From sequence record OQ031074: DNA of 39,004 nucleotides, one strand, 5' to 3'. Numbering within the stretch: the stretch's first letter is position 1; every line of letters starts with the position of its first letter. A program made the position numbers and the translations under genes. The notes below the pieces were generated by a model, which made no database searches, was not told where the DNA came from, and worked only from the letters and a program-made list of their open reading frames with translations. The DNA is from Shigella phage SFP21A. Shown one piece after another: positions 4,319 through 31,090 of this stretch.

Positions 4319-4342
4319 CTAATTGAATGGCCTATAGTTTCA

Positions 4343-4365
4343 ACTTAACTATCACTATAGGGACT
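4343..4365 (+). promoter_or_regulatory. phage RNAP promoter (ACTTAACTATCACTATAGGGACT), +1 about 4360
   Basis: Match to the window's own 12-copy promoter consensus; shares TCACTATAGGGA with T7 class III promoters. Confidence 0.8.
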
Positions 4366-4393
4366 ATAGGCCCTTTAAGTTATAGGAGACTTT

Positions 4394-14699: not shown

Positions 14700-14756
14700 G
14701 TGTTAGACTCAAGGTCATTACCACTATATGTAGTGGCCTTTATGATTAACACACAC
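14699..14756 (+). ncRNA. RNase III-type processing hairpin (conserved motif copy 1)
   Basis: AGACTCAAGGTCAT..CCACTA-TATG-TAGTGG..CCTTTATGATTAAC: upper stem, internal loop and lower stem. The same flanking motif recurs at 24397 and 31047. Confidence 0.55.
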
Positions 14757-20834: not shown

Positions 20835-20839
20835 TTTGG

Positions 20840-20862
20840 ACTAAACTATCACTAAAGGACTC
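20840..20862 (+). promoter_or_regulatory. phage RNAP promoter variant (..CTAAACTATCACTAAAGGAC), +1 about 20857, upstream of gene 1
   Basis: Exact 14-nt match to the upstream consensus, but CACTAAAGG instead of CACTATAGG (T3-like -2 base); followed by a structured leader. Confidence 0.5.
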
Positions 20863-20937: not shown

Positions 20938-23619
20938 ATGAGCGTCATCTCAATTGACAAACACGACTTCTCTGATGTGTCGAATGCAATCGAACCTTTC
21001 AACGTACTGGCGGACCACTACGGACAAGACCTAGCAGTCAAACAGCTCCAGCTAGAGCATGAGGCATACACTGAAGGTGAGCGACGTTTCATTAAGAACC
21101 TTGAGCGTCAGACTGAGCGCGGGGAACTGGCAGACAATCAGGTTGCTAAGCCACTGATGCAAACGCTGGTCCCGACCCTCGCTAAGGCTGTGCGTGAGTG
21201 GCATGAAGGCCCGGACGGTAAGTCCTCGACCTCGCGTCCAAGCGTAGCGTTTACCATGCTAAGCACTGATGAGAAGGCCGTCAAAGACCGCACTCTGCGC
21301 ATCTCCGCCGAGTCTGCTGCGGTCATCATACTGAAAGTAATCCTCAGCAAGCTGGTAAAGCCTGAAGGCATTCCGATAACTCCTATGGCGTCCGCGATAG
21401 GTCGCACACTGGAAGATGAAATCCGCTTTGGTCGCATCCGTGAGCAGGAGCAGGAGCACTTCAAGAAGACCATAGCGGAGAACCTGAAGAAACGCGCTGG
21501 CGCAAGCTACAAGAAAGCCTACATGCAGGCGGTCGAGGCGTCTATGCTTGAGCAGGGGCAACTGGCTGACGCGTGGGGGACTTGGAGTCCGACCGAGGCA
21601 GTTCACGTAGGCATCAAGATGCTAGAGCTGGTCATCCAGTCATCGCAACTGGTCGAGCTGAAGCGCTACGGTGCGGGGAATGCAGCAGCGGACGTCGAGA
21701 TGGTTCACCTGTCTGACTTCTGGGTCAAGAAGATGGCTCAGCGTGGCTTCTCTCTGGCGGGAATTGCCCCAGTTTACCAGCCATGCGTCGTGCCACCTAA
21801 GCCGTGGACCGGGGTGGTTGGAGGTGGGTACTGGGCTAAAGGTCGCAGGCCACTACCTCTGATTCGCTTAGGGTCTAAGGCTGCGGTCCAGCGCTACGAA
21901 GACGTGTACATGCCTGAAGTGTACGAGGCCGTGAACATCATTCAGCAGACTCCTTGGAAGGTAAACAAGAAGGTGCTGGAAGTGGTTAACATGGTCGAGA
22001 AGCTGAATAACACGCCTATCGCTGACATCCCTCAGATGGAGCCGCTGAAGCCTGAAGACTATGCGGGTGAGACCGAGGAGGAGCTTAAGGCTTGGAAGAA
22101 ATCTGCGGCTGGCATCTATCGACGCGAGAAGGCACGACAGTCTCGCCGTTTATCGCTGAGCTTCATCGTCTCACAGGCTAACAAGTTCTCTCAGTTCAAG
22201 GCCATCTGGTTCCCGTACAACATGGACTGGCGAGGTCGTGTTTACGCTGTCCCGATGTTCAACCCTCAGGGCAACGATATGCAGAAGGGCCTGCTGACTC
22301 TGGCGGTAGGCAAGCCAATCGGTGCGGACGGCTTCAAATGGCTGAAGGTACACGGTGCAAACTGCGCGGGTGTCGATAAAGTCACCTTTGAGGAGCGCAT
22401 CAAGTGGGTTGAGGACAATCACGACAACATCCTCGCGACTGCTAAGAGTCCGATGGATAGCATTGACTGGTGGGGCCAGCTAGACTCTCCGTTCTGCTTC
22501 CTCGCGTTCTGCTTTGAGTATGCCGGGGTTATGCACCACGGGCTGAGCTACTCCTGCTCTCTGCCTATCGCGTTCGATGGGTCCTGCTCTGGGATTCAAC
22601 ACTTCAGCGCCATGCTCCGTGACCACGTTGGTGGACATGCGGTAAACCTAACGCCTTCCGGTAAGGTCCAAGACATCTACCGCATTGTGTCCGACCGGGT
22701 GGAAGAACAGCTCAAGGAACTGCTGGTCAACGGCAGTGACAACGAGGTGAAGACCTTCGAGGACAAGAAGACAGGCGAGATTACTGAACGTCTGGTCCTT
22801 GGGACCCGTGAGCTGGCCCGACAGTGGCTGACCTACGGGATGTCACGCTCGGTCACTAAACGCTCGGTCATGACTCTGGCCTACGGGTCGAAGGAATACG
22901 GGTTCGCGGACCAAGTGTTTGAGGACACCGTGATGCCAGCGATTGACAGTGGCAAGGGCGCAATGTTCACCGACCCAAGCCAAGCGTCTCGCTTCATGGC
23001 TAAGATGATATGGGACGCTGTGAGTGTGACCGTAGTGGCTGCGGTGGATGCAATGAAGTGGCTTCAGGGTGCGGCTAAACTGCTGGCTGCCGAGGTCAAG
23101 GACAAGAAGACCAAAGAGGTCCTTAAGCCTTGCCTCCCGGTTCACTGGGTAACGCCTGATGGATTCCCGGTCTGGCAGGAATACCGCAAGAAAGACACCA
23201 CACGTCTGAACCTCCTGTTCCTTGGGTCGTTCAACCTGCAACCGACAGTCAACAAAGGGTCGAAGAAAGAGCTGGATAAGCACAAGCAGGAATCCGGTAT
23301 CAGCCCTAACTTTGTACACTCACAGGACGGCAGTCACCTGAGGAAGACTGTAGTCCACACCCACCGCAAGTATGGCGTGATGTCATTCGCGGTGATTCAC
23401 GACAGCTTTGGAACCATCCCGGCAGACGCTGAGTTCCTGTTCAAGGGAGTCCGTGAGACGATGGTCGAGACCTACCGCGACAACGATGTGCTGCAAGACT
23501 TCTACGAGCAGTTCGCAGACCAGCTTCATGAGAGCCAGCGCGACAAGTTGCCAGAGCTACCGAAGCGCGGTAAACTGAACATCGAAGACATTCTGTTATC
23601 TGACTTTGCATTCGCCTGA
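20938..23619 (+). CDS. 1: DNA-directed RNA polymerase, single-subunit (T7 gene 1 homolog)
   Basis: ~893 aa from ATG 20938; extensive near-identity to T7 RNAP blocks (PCVVPPKPWTG, RYEDVYMPEVY, AIWFPYNMDWRGRVYAV, MFNPQGNDM, SPFCFLAFCFEYAG, AFDGSCSGIQHFSAMLRD, VTKRSVMTLAYGSKE, HDSFGT, C-terminal DFAFA). Confidence 0.97.
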   Translation: MSVISIDKHDFSDVSNAIEPFNVLADHYGQDLAVKQLQLEHEAYTEGERRFIKNLERQTERGELADNQVAKPLMQTLVPTLAKAVREWHEGPDGKSSTSRPSVAFTMLSTDEKAVKDRTLRISAESAAVIILKVILSKLVKPEGIPITPMASAIGRTLEDEIRFGRIREQEQEHFKKTIAENLKKRAGASYKKAYMQAVEASMLEQGQLADAWGTWSPTEAVHVGIKMLELVIQSSQLVELKRYGAGNAAADVEMVHLSDFWVKKMAQRGFSLAGIAPVYQPCVVPPKPWTGVVGGGYWAKGRRPLPLIRLGSKAAVQRYEDVYMPEVYEAVNIIQQTPWKVNKKVLEVVNMVEKLNNTPIADIPQMEPLKPEDYAGETEEELKAWKKSAAGIYRREKARQSRRLSLSFIVSQANKFSQFKAIWFPYNMDWRGRVYAVPMFNPQGNDMQKGLLTLAVGKPIGADGFKWLKVHGANCAGVDKVTFEERIKWVEDNHDNILATAKSPMDSIDWWGQLDSPFCFLAFCFEYAGVMHHGLSYSCSLPIAFDGSCSGIQHFSAMLRDHVGGHAVNLTPSGKVQDIYRIVSDRVEEQLKELLVNGSDNEVKTFEDKKTGEITERLVLGTRELARQWLTYGMSRSVTKRSVMTLAYGSKEYGFADQVFEDTVMPAIDSGKGAMFTDPSQASRFMAKMIWDAVSVTVVAAVDAMKWLQGAAKLLAAEVKDKKTKEVLKPCLPVHWVTPDGFPVWQEYRKKDTTRLNLLFLGSFNLQPTVNKGSKKELDKHKQESGISPNFVHSQDGSHLRKTVVHTHRKYGVMSFAVIHDSFGTIPADAEFLFKGVRETMVETYRDNDVLQDFYEQFADQLHESQRDKLPELPKRGKLNIEDILLSDFAFA

Positions 23620-23632
23620 GGAGGCACTAACT

Positions 23633-23833
23633 ATGAAATTCGCACACAAGCAAACTGGCGTTAAAGGCGGTACTCAAATCGTGACCGTGACCGAGCGCAA
23701 CGGCAAGGGTCTGGTCAAGACCACGGTCATCCCAACAGAGATGTCCAAGGAGCTGAACGTCCCCTTCAAGTGGCTGGTTAAGCTGGTTCAGGAGCGCCAC
23801 GAGTCAGAACTCCGAGAGGCGGCAACTAAATGA
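23633..23833 (+). CDS. hypothetical protein
   Basis: 66-aa ORF from ATG 23633 with RBS GAGGAGG; immediately after RNAP. Confidence 0.5.
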   Translation: MKFAHKQTGVKGGTQIVTVTERNGKGLVKTTVIPTEMSKELNVPFKWLVKLVQERHESELREAATK

Positions 23834-23907
23834 CAGACCTTAAGTGGCTGGCCCTATGGCTGGCCTTCTTAGCAGTGTACACCTTAATCCAACGCAGAAG
23901 AGGTTAA
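23830..23907 (+). CDS. hypothetical 25-aa hydrophobic peptide
   Basis: MTDLKWLALWLAFLAVYTLIQRRRG; start overlaps the upstream stop (ATGA); predicted single TM helix; very short. Confidence 0.25.
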   Translation: MTDLKWLALWLAFLAVYTLIQRRRG

Positions 23908-23911
23908 CCCT

Positions 23912-24382
23912 ATGTTCTTTAACTCCGCACTGAAAGCACGTATCGCAGAACTTGAGTCACGACTGAAGATTAAAGACGCAACTAACGAGAGGCTCTTTGA
24001 GAAGATGGGAAAGTACGTCTCGAAGGTTTCAGAACTGGAGAAGCAGATTGAGTCTAAGCGTGAAGTCGAGCCGTTCCATGTTAAGCGTATGGTCGGCCTG
24101 AAGTTCAAGGCGCTATTCAACGGTCTCTACCAGCCGACTGAGTTCAAGACCGGGCCGGGACCATGCGGAAAGACGGTGACGCACTTCACCACAAGTCGAG
24201 ACGAACGGACCCTGACCATCCACCAGCACCACACGGATGGGTCCAGCAAGAGCTTCGAGTATCGACTGAGTGACATCGACGGTCGCATCCAGTACGACTA
24301 CGAGAACGTGATGGTCTACGGAGAAGAGGCAGAACGCGAGCGAGCACACTACGTCTTCCTGAGACGCCAGCGCTTCGCCTAA
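23912..24382 (+). CDS. hypothetical protein with N-terminal coiled-coil
   Basis: 156-aa ORF, RBS GAGG upstream; N-terminal heptad-like region (ARIAELESRLKIKDATNERLFEKMGKYVSKVSELEKQIE); no recognised catalytic motif. Confidence 0.55.
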   Translation: MFFNSALKARIAELESRLKIKDATNERLFEKMGKYVSKVSELEKQIESKREVEPFHVKRMVGLKFKALFNGLYQPTEFKTGPGPCGKTVTHFTTSRDERTLTIHQHHTDGSSKSFEYRLSDIDGRIQYDYENVMVYGEEAERERAHYVFLRRQRFA

Positions 24383-24400
24383 ACTATCACTATAGGATTA
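24378..24400 (+). promoter_or_regulatory. phage RNAP promoter (CCTAAACTATCACTATAGGATTA), +1 about 24395
   Basis: Consensus match; immediately followed by an RNase III-type hairpin. Confidence 0.75.
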
Positions 24401-24446
24401 GACTCAAGGTCATGACACAAAGTCGTGGCCTTCATGATTAACCCTA
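24397..24446 (+). ncRNA. RNase III-type processing hairpin (conserved motif copy 2)
   Basis: AGACTCAAGGTCATGAC-ACAAA-GTCGTGGCCTTCATGATTAAC; the stem GGUCAUGAC/GUCGUGGCC pairs with G-U wobbles; same flanks as 14699 and 31047. Confidence 0.55.
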
Positions 24447-24470: not shown

Positions 24471-24650
24471 ATGTATCAGAACACCATCAACTTCGAGCGC
24501 ATCCGTGAACGTCAGCAGACTGAGGGCTACATGCCTAAGGGTCGCAAGCTGAACAAGCCTAAACGTGGCGGTGGCGTGAAGGGTGCTTTCCGTAACGCTG
24601 AAGGCAAAGATTCTCTGGTCAACCAAGAGAAGTATTTCGTAGGAGCGTAA
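24471..24650 (+). CDS. gp1.1-like small basic protein
   Basis: 59-aa ORF (below the track cutoff); KGRKLNKPKRGG resembles T7 gp1.1 (KGRKLNKTKRDR as recalled); RBS CAGGAG. Confidence 0.5.
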   Translation: MYQNTINFERIRERQQTEGYMPKGRKLNKPKRGGGVKGAFRNAEGKDSLVNQEKYFVGA

Positions 24651-31032: not shown

Positions 31033-31050
31033 GCTATCACTGTAGGATAG
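31028..31050 (+). promoter_or_regulatory. phage RNAP promoter variant (ACTAAGCTATCACTGTAGGATAG), +1 about 31045
   Basis: Consensus upstream half; -2 T>G; immediately followed by an RNase III-type hairpin and gene 5. Confidence 0.6.
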
Positions 31051-31090
31051 ACTCAAGGTCATTCACTTCGAGTGGCCTTTATGATTAGAC
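31047..31090 (+). ncRNA. RNase III-type processing hairpin (conserved motif copy 3)
   Basis: AGACTCAAGGTCATTCACT-TCG-AGTGGCCTTTATGATTAGAC; same conserved flanks as copies at 14699 and 24397. Confidence 0.55.

What the first reader, a model, noticed from the sequence alone, without database searches (positions are those of the whole stretch)
23633..24382. Unassigned genes between RNA polymerase and the gene 1.1 homolog
Three ORFs (66 aa, 25-aa hydrophobic peptide, 156 aa with N-terminal coiled-coil) lie between gene 1 and the next phage promoter, where T7 has only a short intergenic region. The 156-aa protein has an ~60-residue heptad-like region followed by a compact Gly/Pro/His-containing domain and no recognisable enzyme motif. 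Their placement in the early-to-middle transition region makes them candidates for host-interaction or regulatory functions.
Basis: inference. Interest (0 to 1): 0.5.

Follow-up and report, generated by a model that had tools for sequence, protein, structure and literature searches.

The report
Three small early genes after phage RNA polymerase
The three open reading frames after the RNA polymerase gene of this T7-like Shigella phage are real, conserved early genes, and the largest belongs to the already named but uncharacterised phage T3 "gene 1.05" family, so the locus is mostly ordinary with function still unknown.

Summary
The window is the 39,004-bp genome of Shigella phage SFP21A, a Kayfunavirus related to T7. 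Each has a Shine-Dalgarno sequence and evolves under purifying selection (dN/dS about 0.2).

- **orfA (23633-23833, 66 aa)** is a basic protein found only in this genus, with no detectable relatives elsewhere.
- **orfB (23830-23907, 25 aa)** is a single-pass membrane miniprotein. Its start overlaps the orfA stop (ATGA). It is 25 codons long in every relative examined and is usually left unannotated.
- **orfC (23912-24382, 156 aa)** is not unassigned. It is a homolog of T3 gene 1.05 (Pfam PF25755, 92 bits) and is already called gp1.05 in phage EcoDS1.

In 8 of 22 Kayfunavirus loci gene 1.05 is cleanly missing while orfA and orfB remain, so it is a dispensable accessory cassette. A host-interaction role is plausible but untested. 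I rate this a new member of a known, uncharacterised kind, of modest interest.

The parts
20938..23619 (+). Gene 1, the T7-type RNA polymerase (context). The three ORFs follow it with no intervening promoter or terminator.
   Evidence: The ORF is listed. The start is taken at MSVISIDKHDF, as in the 893-aa relatives. Promoter scans are.
23633..23833 (+). orfA: a 66-aa basic protein (net charge +5) specific to Kayfunavirus, function unknown (phrog_8082).
   Evidence: It has a strong GAGGAGG ribosome-binding motif and matches phrog_8082 at 2e-38. Searches found 152 (sequence) and 177 (profile) relatives, none with a Pfam domain; those on long contigs are about 39-40 kb. It occurs in 219 phage records. 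dN/dS is 0.21. There is no PDB sequence match.
23830..23907 (+). orfB: a 25-aa single-pass membrane miniprotein (hydrophobic core W6-I20 followed by QRRRG), translationally coupled to orfA through an ATGA overlap.
   Evidence: It is always 25 codons, with an ATGA or GTGA overlap, in all 15 aligned loci and in the 22 loci. dN/dS is 0.20, and some pairs show 6-8 synonymous and 0 non-synonymous changes. The mean Kyte-Doolittle value over 17 residues is 1.9. It is kept even where orfC is missing.
23912..24382 (+). orfC: a 156-aa homolog of T3 gene 1.05 (PF25755).
   Evidence: Pfam PF25755 scores 92.3 bits against a cut-off of 27, E 1.9e-26, over residues 60-130. phrog_8103 matches at 5e-54. BLASTP to T3 gp1.05 gives 37% identity and E 3e-13; to phiSG-JL2 gp1.05, 42% and E 4e-15. 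The AF2 model has pLDDT 95.5.
23921..24061 (+). orfC residues 4-50: one long helix with a continuous heptad register (a likely dimerising coiled coil). It evolves fast among relatives.
   Evidence: AF2 helix 4-50. Positions a/d are 71% hydrophobic against 21% elsewhere, and 17 of 2000 shuffles do as well. pN is 0.45 against 0.12 in the domain.
24074..24316 (+). orfC residues 55-135: the conserved gp1.05 domain, a six-stranded small beta-barrel. Invariant residues are G81, C85, Q105 and F115. Nearly invariant are F78, G83, G86, V89, D109, K113, Y117, G124 and R125.
24320..24376 (+). orfC residues 137-155: a basic C-terminal helix. The short, domain-only family members such as T3 gp1.05 end right after the barrel and lack it.
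   Evidence: AF2 helix 137-155.
24378..24400 (+). Phage RNA polymerase promoter (the phi1.1 equivalent), overlapping the orfC stop codon as in T3 and phiSG-JL2.
   Evidence: It matches the consensus shared by about 10 sites in the window. The same arrangement is annotated in T3 and phiSG-JL2.
24399..24440 (+). Hairpin module resembling an R1.1 RNase III site, which would form the 3' boundary of the processed mRNA carrying gene 1, orfA, orfB and orfC.
   Evidence: The RNA fold gives -21.1 kcal/mol, z -2.5. The module TAGACTCAAGGTCAT...GTGGCCTT.ATGATTA recurs at 31048 and 14704. A stem-loop is annotated at the same place in T3 and phiSG-JL2.
24471..24650 (+). Gene 1.1 homolog (context, the downstream boundary of the locus).
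   Evidence: Pfam PF08200, E 3.4e-10.

Best explanation
**Shown.** The interval holds three genuine protein-coding early genes of a Kayfunavirus. No promoter or terminator separates them from gene 1, and each start is tightly spaced to the preceding stop (14 nt, ATGA overlap, 4 nt).

- orfA is a small basic soluble protein restricted to this genus.
- orfB is a 25-residue membrane miniprotein. Its charges (RRR after the hydrophobic core) predict the C-terminus in the cytoplasm.
- orfC is the Kayfunavirus version of T3 gene 1.05. It consists of a coiled-coil stalk, a conserved small beta-barrel head and a basic C-terminal helix.
- Gene 1.05 is an optional cassette, while orfA and orfB stay together in every locus examined.

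**Inferred.**
- The three ORFs share the gene 1 mRNA bounded by RNase III-type hairpins and are translationally coupled.
- The orfC coiled coil forms a dimer that presents two barrel heads.
- The barrel binds a host macromolecule in the cytoplasm, close to the inner membrane. The reason is that many relatives, including phiSG-JL2 gp1.05, carry the same barrel behind an N-terminal membrane helix and a coiled coil.
- gp1.05 therefore acts as a non-essential host-takeover or counter-defence accessory factor, not as an enzyme or virion part.
- orfA and orfB form a separate, more constant early pair that acts at the membrane.

No target is identified for any of the three.
For: **Identity and family.**
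- The closest protein match is SFP21A, 100% identical on a 39,004-bp contig. The nearest phage records are Kayfunavirus.
- orfC hits PF25755 at 92 bits. It aligns directly to the T3 and phiSG-JL2 gp1.05 proteins.
- Synteny with T3 and phiSG-JL2 holds from gene 1.05 onward: promoter over the stop codon, hairpin, then gene 1.1.

**Coding.** dN/dS is 0.16-0.35 for all parts. orfB keeps its length and overlap in every locus.

**Structure.** AF2 gives pLDDT 95.5 for the full protein and 95.7 for the domain. The heptad register is continuous.

**Architectures.** Among 99 family representatives clustered at 50% identity, about 29-33 have an N-terminal membrane helix, about 13-17 are long without one, and 53 are short, mostly barrel-only. 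A membrane-helix type (P0284) sits between RNA polymerase and gene 1.1 in a T3-like contig.

**Early expression elsewhere.** Barrel-only genes lie in the early regions of a Pifdecavirus and a Pienvirus.

**Dispensability.** In 8 of 22 Kayfunavirus loci orfB is followed directly by the promoter, and one locus has orfC truncated to 70 aa. orfA occurs in 219 phage records, against 90 with a near-full-length orfC match.

**Phage restriction.** The exact core motif FKLGLGPCG found 2 loci among 185,579 species genomes. The one on a long contig lies among phage-like replication genes.

**No enzyme or defence family hit**.
Against: - No functional evidence exists. No paper in the held library reports a phenotype or partner for gp1.05.
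- Dimerisation, membrane proximity and host binding are inferred from sequence patterns and from the architectures of relatives, not tested here.
- This orfC has no membrane helix of its own. Coiled-coil-type relatives in other genera also lack one and lack an upstream membrane ORF, so membrane proximity may not apply to it.
- The Sphingobium locus has the gene among DNA-replication genes, and T3 annotates its replication origin partly over gene 1.05. A role in DNA metabolism is therefore not excluded.
Confidence: 0.6

Rival explanations
1. orfB and orfC together form a two-piece version of the single-chain proteins (membrane helix, coiled coil, barrel) seen in phiSG-JL2-like phages. On this view orfB is the detached anchor that holds gp1.05 at the inner membrane, either non-covalently or after a frameshift fusion.
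For: - About a third of family representatives, and phiSG-JL2 gp1.05, have an N-terminal membrane helix followed by basic residues and a coiled coil.
- orfB has the same signature (hydrophobic core then RRR) and ends 4 nt before orfC, with the orfC ribosome-binding site inside it.
- The combined length, 25 + 156 aa, falls within the 165-200 aa of most coiled-coil-containing single-chain forms.
Against: - orfB persists unchanged in 8 of 22 loci that lack orfC entirely, so it has a function of its own.
- orfB is coupled to orfA by the ATGA overlap in every locus.
- Coiled-coil-type gp1.05 genes in other genera have no upstream membrane ORF.
- A frameshift fusion is unlikely. The orfB-orfC spacer is 4 nt in 12 loci and 5 nt in 3, so the frame relation is not conserved. 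There is also no slippery codon before the stop.
Confidence: 0.12
2. The gp1.05 barrel is a Sm-like or WYL-like nucleic-acid-binding module. It would bind RNA or single-stranded DNA, for example to sequester a damage or infection signal, or to act at the nearby replication origin.
For: - The layout of an N-terminal helix followed by bent antiparallel strands resembles the Sm layout.
- The protein is basic, net charge +5.
- T3 and phiSG-JL2 annotate the replication origin next to or over gene 1.05.
Against: - hhalign of the family profile against E. coli Hfq gives 0.24% probability.
- There is no Pfam WYL or LSM hit.
- The family has six strands and its own conserved GxGPCG and HTDG loops.
Confidence: 0.1
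3. The interval is mainly a cis-acting DNA or RNA region, such as a replication origin or mRNA-processing region as in T7 and T3. On this view some ORFs, especially the 25-codon one, are not translated.
For: - T7 and T3 place promoters and the primary origin between gene 1 and gene 1.1.
- Most database records do not annotate orfB.
- The 3' end of orfB is nearly invariant at the DNA level.
Against: - Substitutions in orfB are mostly synonymous or conservative (dN/dS 0.20).
- Length, start overlap and stop are kept despite up to about 25% nucleotide divergence, and L007 uses a GTG start with many changes yet keeps the same hydrophobic profile.
- No promoter, terminator, Rfam family or AT-rich stretch lies within 23633-24374.
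- The invariant 3' end is explained by the orfC ribosome-binding site.
Confidence: 0.04

Closest known systems
Phage T3 gene 1.05 protein family (Pfam PF25755, Phage_T3_1_05; phrog_8103, 6379, 6440)
   Same: - The conserved domain with its motif (EFKxGxGPCGKxV ... QxHTDGxxKxFxY ... DIxGRI).
- The genomic position after gene 1, ending under the phi1.1 promoter and before the R1.1 hairpin and gene 1.1.
- Function unknown in both.
   Different: - T3 gp1.05 is 90 aa, essentially the barrel alone. This one adds a 47-residue coiled coil and a basic C-terminal helix.
- T3 has its own phi1.05 promoter and the annotated origin upstream. Here two extra genes (orfA, orfB) occupy that space and there is no promoter.
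phiSG-JL2 gp1.05 and related proteins with a membrane helix, coiled coil and barrel
   Same: A coiled-coil stalk followed by the same barrel (42% identity over 74 aa), at the same locus.
   Different: Those proteins carry an N-terminal membrane helix in the same chain. Here the chain has none, and a separate 25-aa membrane ORF lies just upstream but also exists without gene 1.05.
EcoDS1 gp1.05 and other Kayfunavirus orthologs
   Same: Same architecture and length (about 150-160 aa), 57-97% identity, and the same orfA-orfB-1.05 order.
   Different: The coiled-coil segment is highly divergent and mosaic between phages. About a third of the related genomes examined lack the gene.
Sm/Hfq and WYL small beta-barrels
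   Different: There is no sequence-profile similarity. The family has six strands, its own conserved loops, and scores no better than generic small barrels. It is not a member on present evidence.

Membership tests
T3 gene 1.05 family (PF25755) | Match to the family HMM above the curated cut-off | tested here: met
   92.3 bits against a cut-off of 27, E 1.9e-26, residues 60-130 covering profile positions 2-73 of 73.
T3 gene 1.05 family (PF25755) | Direct similarity to the founding protein, T3 gp1.05 | tested here: met
   BLASTP gives 37% identity over 79 aa, E 3e-13. To phiSG-JL2 gp1.05 it gives 42% over 74 aa, E 4e-15.
T3 gene 1.05 family (PF25755) | Conserved core residues of the family present | tested here: met
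   G81, C85, Q105 and F115 are invariant. F78, G83, G86, V89, D109, K113, Y117, G124 and R125 are at least 90% conserved in 111 sequences, and all are present in the window protein.
T3 gene 1.05 family (PF25755) | Position between gene 1 and gene 1.1, with the phi1.1 promoter over the stop codon and a hairpin after it | tested here: met
   Window layout. T3 and phiSG-JL2 annotations.
T3 gene 1.05 locus (not the protein family) | Own phage promoter (phi1.05) and origin region directly upstream of the gene | tested here: not met
   No promoter copy lies between 20850 and 24388. orfA and orfB occupy that space.
Sm / Hfq-like fold | Significant structural match to Sm or Hfq proteins | tested here: not met
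Sm / Hfq-like fold | Sequence-profile similarity | tested here: not met
   hhalign of profile A4 against E. coli Hfq gives probability 0.24%. There is no LSM hit in Pfam.
WYL domain | Pfam WYL match or a strong structural match | tested here: not met
P-loop NTPase | Conserved Walker A motif GxxxxGK[ST] within an alpha/beta fold | tested here: not met
   The window sequence G81-PGPC-G86-K87-T88 fits the pattern. K87 and T88 are not among the residues conserved at 90% or more, and some members have Leu or another residue there. The domain is all-beta and about 80 aa.
Named small membrane protein families for orfB (DUF5325; DUF2842 as annotated in IMM-002) | HMM match above the cut-off | tested here: not met
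   DUF5325 scores 13.7 bits against a cut-off of 25. There is no DUF2842 hit.
Known anti-phage defence proteins (PADLOC) | HMM match | tested here: not met
   None of the three proteins gives a hit.

The most novel reading that the evidence does not exclude
The gp1.05 barrel is a new fold class of early effector in Autographiviridae that works at the cytoplasmic face of the inner membrane. It would be anchored by its own membrane helix in many phages, and in Kayfunavirus possibly through the separately encoded 25-aa orfB. There it would capture a host protein or nucleic acid to aid takeover or to blunt a defence. The hypervariable coiled coil and the presence/absence pattern would then reflect an arms race.
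Probability: 0.15. Interest if true: 0.55.

Novelty: new member of a known kind. Interest (0 to 1): 0.33.

Why it matters
The locus itself is ordinary, but three points have practical value.

- **A missed gene.** A 25-codon membrane gene under clear purifying selection is missing from most deposited Kayfunavirus annotations.
- **An open family.** The gp1.05 family is widespread in T7-like phages, is almost confined to phages, and models confidently as a small barrel with no solved homolog. It comes in three architectures (barrel alone, coiled coil plus barrel, membrane helix plus coiled coil plus barrel). No paper in the held library reports a function for it.
- **A natural experiment.** Closely related phages with and without gene 1.05 already exist. 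They provide a ready comparison for finding its host-range or counter-defence phenotype, which is relevant to phages considered for therapy against Shigella, E. coli, Salmonella and Klebsiella.

Tried and rejected
- **afdb50 library.** It was not available.
- **PDB sequence searches.** Single-sequence and profile searches for orfC and orfA found only keratin and other coiled-coil noise.
- **PADLOC and NCBIfam.** Nothing.
- **Walker A reading of GPGPCGKT.** Rejected, because K and T are not conserved and the fold is all-beta.
- **Large repeat proteins.** The matches of residues 57-103 to P0252, P0281 and P0326 are short motif-level hits to 'PGxCG...TWTATDxCGR' repeats. I did not treat them as homologs.
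- **+1 frameshift joining orfB to orfC.** Rejected. The spacer is 4 nt or 5 nt in different relatives and there is no slippery site.
- **orfB as an obligatory anchor of orfC.** Weakened by the 8 loci that have orfB but no orfC and by coiled-coil-type genes elsewhere having no upstream membrane ORF.
- **Remote homologs of orfA.** The profile search stayed within the same 177 proteins.
- **Rfam and sigma-70 promoter/terminator scans of the region.** Nothing relevant.
- **Literature.** Searches for gp1.05, gene 1.05, PF25755 and SFP21A returned only genome-annotation tables. The K1F genome paper is not held.

Full report
**What the window is.** The 156-aa protein is 100% identical to a hypothetical protein of Shigella phage SFP21A, found on a contig of exactly 39,004 bp. 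The nearest phage records are Kayfunavirus, in the subfamily Studiervirinae of the Autographiviridae. The window is therefore a complete T7-like genome, circularly permuted relative to the usual T7 map. The RNA polymerase gene lies at about 20938-23619.

**Checking the observation.** All three ORFs are present as described.
- orfA is at 23633-23833 (66 aa). A GAGGAGG motif precedes it, and it starts 14 nt after the gene 1 stop.
- orfB is at 23830-23907 (25 aa, MTDLKWLALWLAFLAVYTLIQRRRG). Its ATG overlaps the orfA stop as ATGA.
- orfC is at 23912-24382 (156 aa). It starts 4 nt after the orfB stop, with its GAGG inside the last orfB codons.

The phage promoter consensus ctaaactatCACTATAGGa occurs about ten times in the window. 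The copy at 24388 overlaps the orfC stop, and there is no copy between 20850 and 24388. No sigma-70 promoter of note, terminator or Rfam family lies in the interval. In T7 the gap between gene 1 and gene 1.1 is 184 nt and holds only the phi1.1A and phi1.1B promoters. Here it is 851 nt.

**Are the ORFs genes?** Yes.
- Across 17 distinct related loci, Nei-Gojobori dN/dS is 0.21 for orfA and 0.20 for orfB. For orfC it is 0.35 for the coiled coil, 0.16 for the domain and 0.21 for the tail.
- The coiled-coil value is unreliable because synonymous sites are saturated there.
- orfB is the ORF most likely to be dismissed, yet it is exactly 25 codons in all 15 aligned loci and in the 22 loci; these two sets partly overlap. 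The ATGA (once GTGA) overlap is always kept.
- Several orfB pairs differ by 6-8 synonymous and no non-synonymous changes. The most divergent copy, L007, changes many nucleotides yet keeps the hydrophobic core and the basic tail.
- Most deposited genomes do not annotate orfB. IMM-002 labels it 'DUF2842 domain-containing protein', which my Pfam scan does not support.

**What orfC is.**
- It matches Pfam PF25755, 'Enterobacteria phage T3 gene 1.05 protein', at 92.3 bits against a cut-off of 27. It also matches phrog_8103.
- It aligns directly to T3 gp1.05 (37% over 79 aa, E 3e-13) and to phiSG-JL2 gp1.05 (42% over 74 aa).
- The T3 and phiSG-JL2 records show this order: gene 1, phi1.05 promoter and origin, gene 1.05, phi1.1 promoter over its stop codon, R1.1 stem-loop, gene 1.1.
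- The window has the same order from gene 1.05 onward. That includes the promoter over the stop codon and a stable hairpin at 24399-24440 (-21.1 kcal/mol, z -2.5).
- The ortholog in phage EcoDS1 is already named gp1.05.
- The gene is therefore 'assigned' by name, but no paper in the held library reports a function.

**Structure of orfC.**
- With a 111-sequence alignment, AlphaFold2 gives a mean pLDDT of 95.5. The model has a helix at residues 4-50, six strands between 55 and 135, and a helix at 137-155.
- The first helix has one continuous heptad register. Positions a/d are 71% hydrophobic against 21% elsewhere, and 17 of 2000 shuffles do as well. Homologs keep the pattern although the sequence diverges strongly (pN 0.45).
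- The full model found only long-helix matches in the PDB. I therefore modelled residues 54-138 alone (pLDDT 95.7, pTM 0.81).
- A profile comparison with E. coli Hfq gives 0.24% probability.
- Against predicted viral structures, the matches are uncharacterised proteins of Autographiviridae. These phages infect Escherichia, Salmonella, Klebsiella, Pectobacterium, Dickeya, Pseudomonas, Ralstonia, Providencia, Aeromonas and Delftia.
- The segment G81-PGPC-G86-K87-T88 looks like a Walker A motif. K and T are not conserved across the family and the fold is all-beta, so I reject that reading.

**The family.** An exhaustive search of 1.84 billion representatives found 103 clusters. Three of these are large repeat proteins that I excluded as motif-level matches. 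The rest fall into three architectures:
- barrel alone, about 75-115 aa, as in T3;
- coiled coil plus barrel, as here;
- N-terminal membrane helix plus coiled coil plus barrel, about 165-220 aa, as in phiSG-JL2 gp1.05.

One membrane-helix member sits between RNA polymerase and gene 1.1 in a T3-like metagenomic phage. Barrel-only members lie in the early regions of a Pifdecavirus, just upstream of RNA polymerase, and of a Pienvirus.

A scan of one genome from each of 185,579 bacterial and archaeal species, using the exact core motif, found two loci. The one on a long contig lies among phage-like replication genes: DNA polymerase A and a 5'-3' exonuclease. The family is thus essentially phage-borne. 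The caveat is that the scan needed the exact motif FKLGLGPCG.

**orfB and orfC: one function or two?** The membrane-helix relatives suggested that orfB could be the detached anchor of orfC. Three results argue against an obligatory link.
- In 8 of 22 Kayfunavirus loci carrying orfB, gene 1.05 is absent and the orfB stop runs straight into the promoter (GGTTAACCCTAAACTATCAC). The junction shares a CCTA microhomology with the two ends of orfC in the window.
- One further phage has orfC truncated to 70 aa.
- Coiled-coil-type gp1.05 genes in other genera have no membrane ORF upstream.

A frameshift fusion is also unlikely, because the orfB-orfC spacer is 4 nt in twelve loci and 5 nt in three.

Counts in the phage collection agree. 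orfA is in 219 records, while near-full-length orfC matches are in 90. Gene 1.05 is therefore a dispensable presence/absence cassette, and orfA-orfB is the constant pair.

**orfA.** It is basic (net charge +5) and matches only phrog_8082. Sequence and profile searches return 152 and 177 proteins with no Pfam domain; those on long contigs are Kayfunavirus-sized, and the tblastn hits in the phage collection are Kayfunavirus-type phages. There is no PDB sequence match. Two allelic forms, about 52% identical, exist. The window's orfA form and orfC form recombine independently among relatives: CHRF_30001 has 97% identical orfC but only 52% identical orfA.

**Most likely mechanism.**
- *Shown:* these are three conserved early genes, tightly spaced with an ATGA overlap between orfA and orfB, and with no promoter or terminator between them and gene 1. 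A hairpin module follows the phi1.1 promoter.
- *Inferred:* they share the gene 1 mRNA between RNase III-type sites and are translationally coupled. gp1.05 dimerises through its coiled coil and uses two small barrels to bind a host macromolecule near the inner membrane. It acts as a non-essential takeover or counter-defence factor. orfA and orfB form a separate membrane-associated early pair.
- I give about 0.6 to this overall picture. Within it, gene identity and family membership are near certain, and the host-interaction role is about even odds.
- Rivals are the two-piece anchor model (0.12), Sm/WYL-like nucleic-acid binding (0.10), and untranslated or cis-acting sequence (0.04).

**Verdict.** This is a new member of a known but uncharacterised family, together with two genus-specific small genes. 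Interest is modest.

Noticed in passing
window 20836-20858: A near-consensus phage promoter (ctaaactatCACTAAAGGa, one core mismatch) lies just upstream of the RNA polymerase gene and is followed by 'gactcaaggtc' and hairpins. T7 has no phage promoter before gene 1, so if this one is active it would let the phage polymerase transcribe its own gene.
   Followed up: partly
window 24399-24440, 31048-31087, 14704-14748: A conserved hairpin module (TAGACTCAAGGTCAT - loop - GTGGCCTT.ATGATTA) recurs three times, twice right after a phage promoter. These are probably RNase III processing sites like T7 R1.1 and its counterparts.
   Followed up: partly
L032, L033, L036, L038, L039, L040, L042, L045 (compare window 23905-24390): Gene 1.05 is cleanly absent in these Kayfunavirus genomes. 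The junction shows a CCTA microhomology matching both ends of orfC in the window, which suggests deletion or insertion of the gene as a cassette.
   Followed up: yes
L014 1501-1713 (same phage as L031): orfC is truncated to 70 aa in this phage, with the remainder readable in another frame. This looks like a natural pseudogene of gene 1.05.
   Followed up: partly
L001 3233-3982 compared with window 23633-24382: Salmonella phage CHRF_30001 has 97% identical orfC and identical orfB but only 52% identical orfA. The three genes are shuffled independently, and the nearly invariant orfB may be the crossover point.
   Followed up: partly
L016 666-1122 (EcoDS1); L002 (Dev2); H94 (CR44b): Naming is inconsistent in public records. 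The orfA homolog is called gp1.1 in EcoDS1 and Dev2, and '1.05' in CR44b. EcoDS1 also has an extra 76-aa ORF between gene 1 and orfA.
   Followed up: no
L046 3779-4174 (Sphingobium sp. CCH11-B1 contig): A 131-aa protein with the gp1.05 domain (PF25755, E 1.6e-21) lies between DNA polymerase A and 5'-3' exonuclease genes in a bacterial assembly. This is probably a phage or prophage, and the gene is in the replication module rather than next to an RNA polymerase gene.
   Followed up: partly
window 4353-4370: Two overlapping promoter cores occur in tandem (CACTATAGG GACTATAGG), with an inverted near-copy at 4331-4339. This may lie near the physical genome end or terminal repeat of this permuted record.
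   Followed up: no
P0227 (84 aa): One orfA homolog is extended by 18 residues because its stop codon is lost, so it reads on across the orfB start.
   Followed up: no
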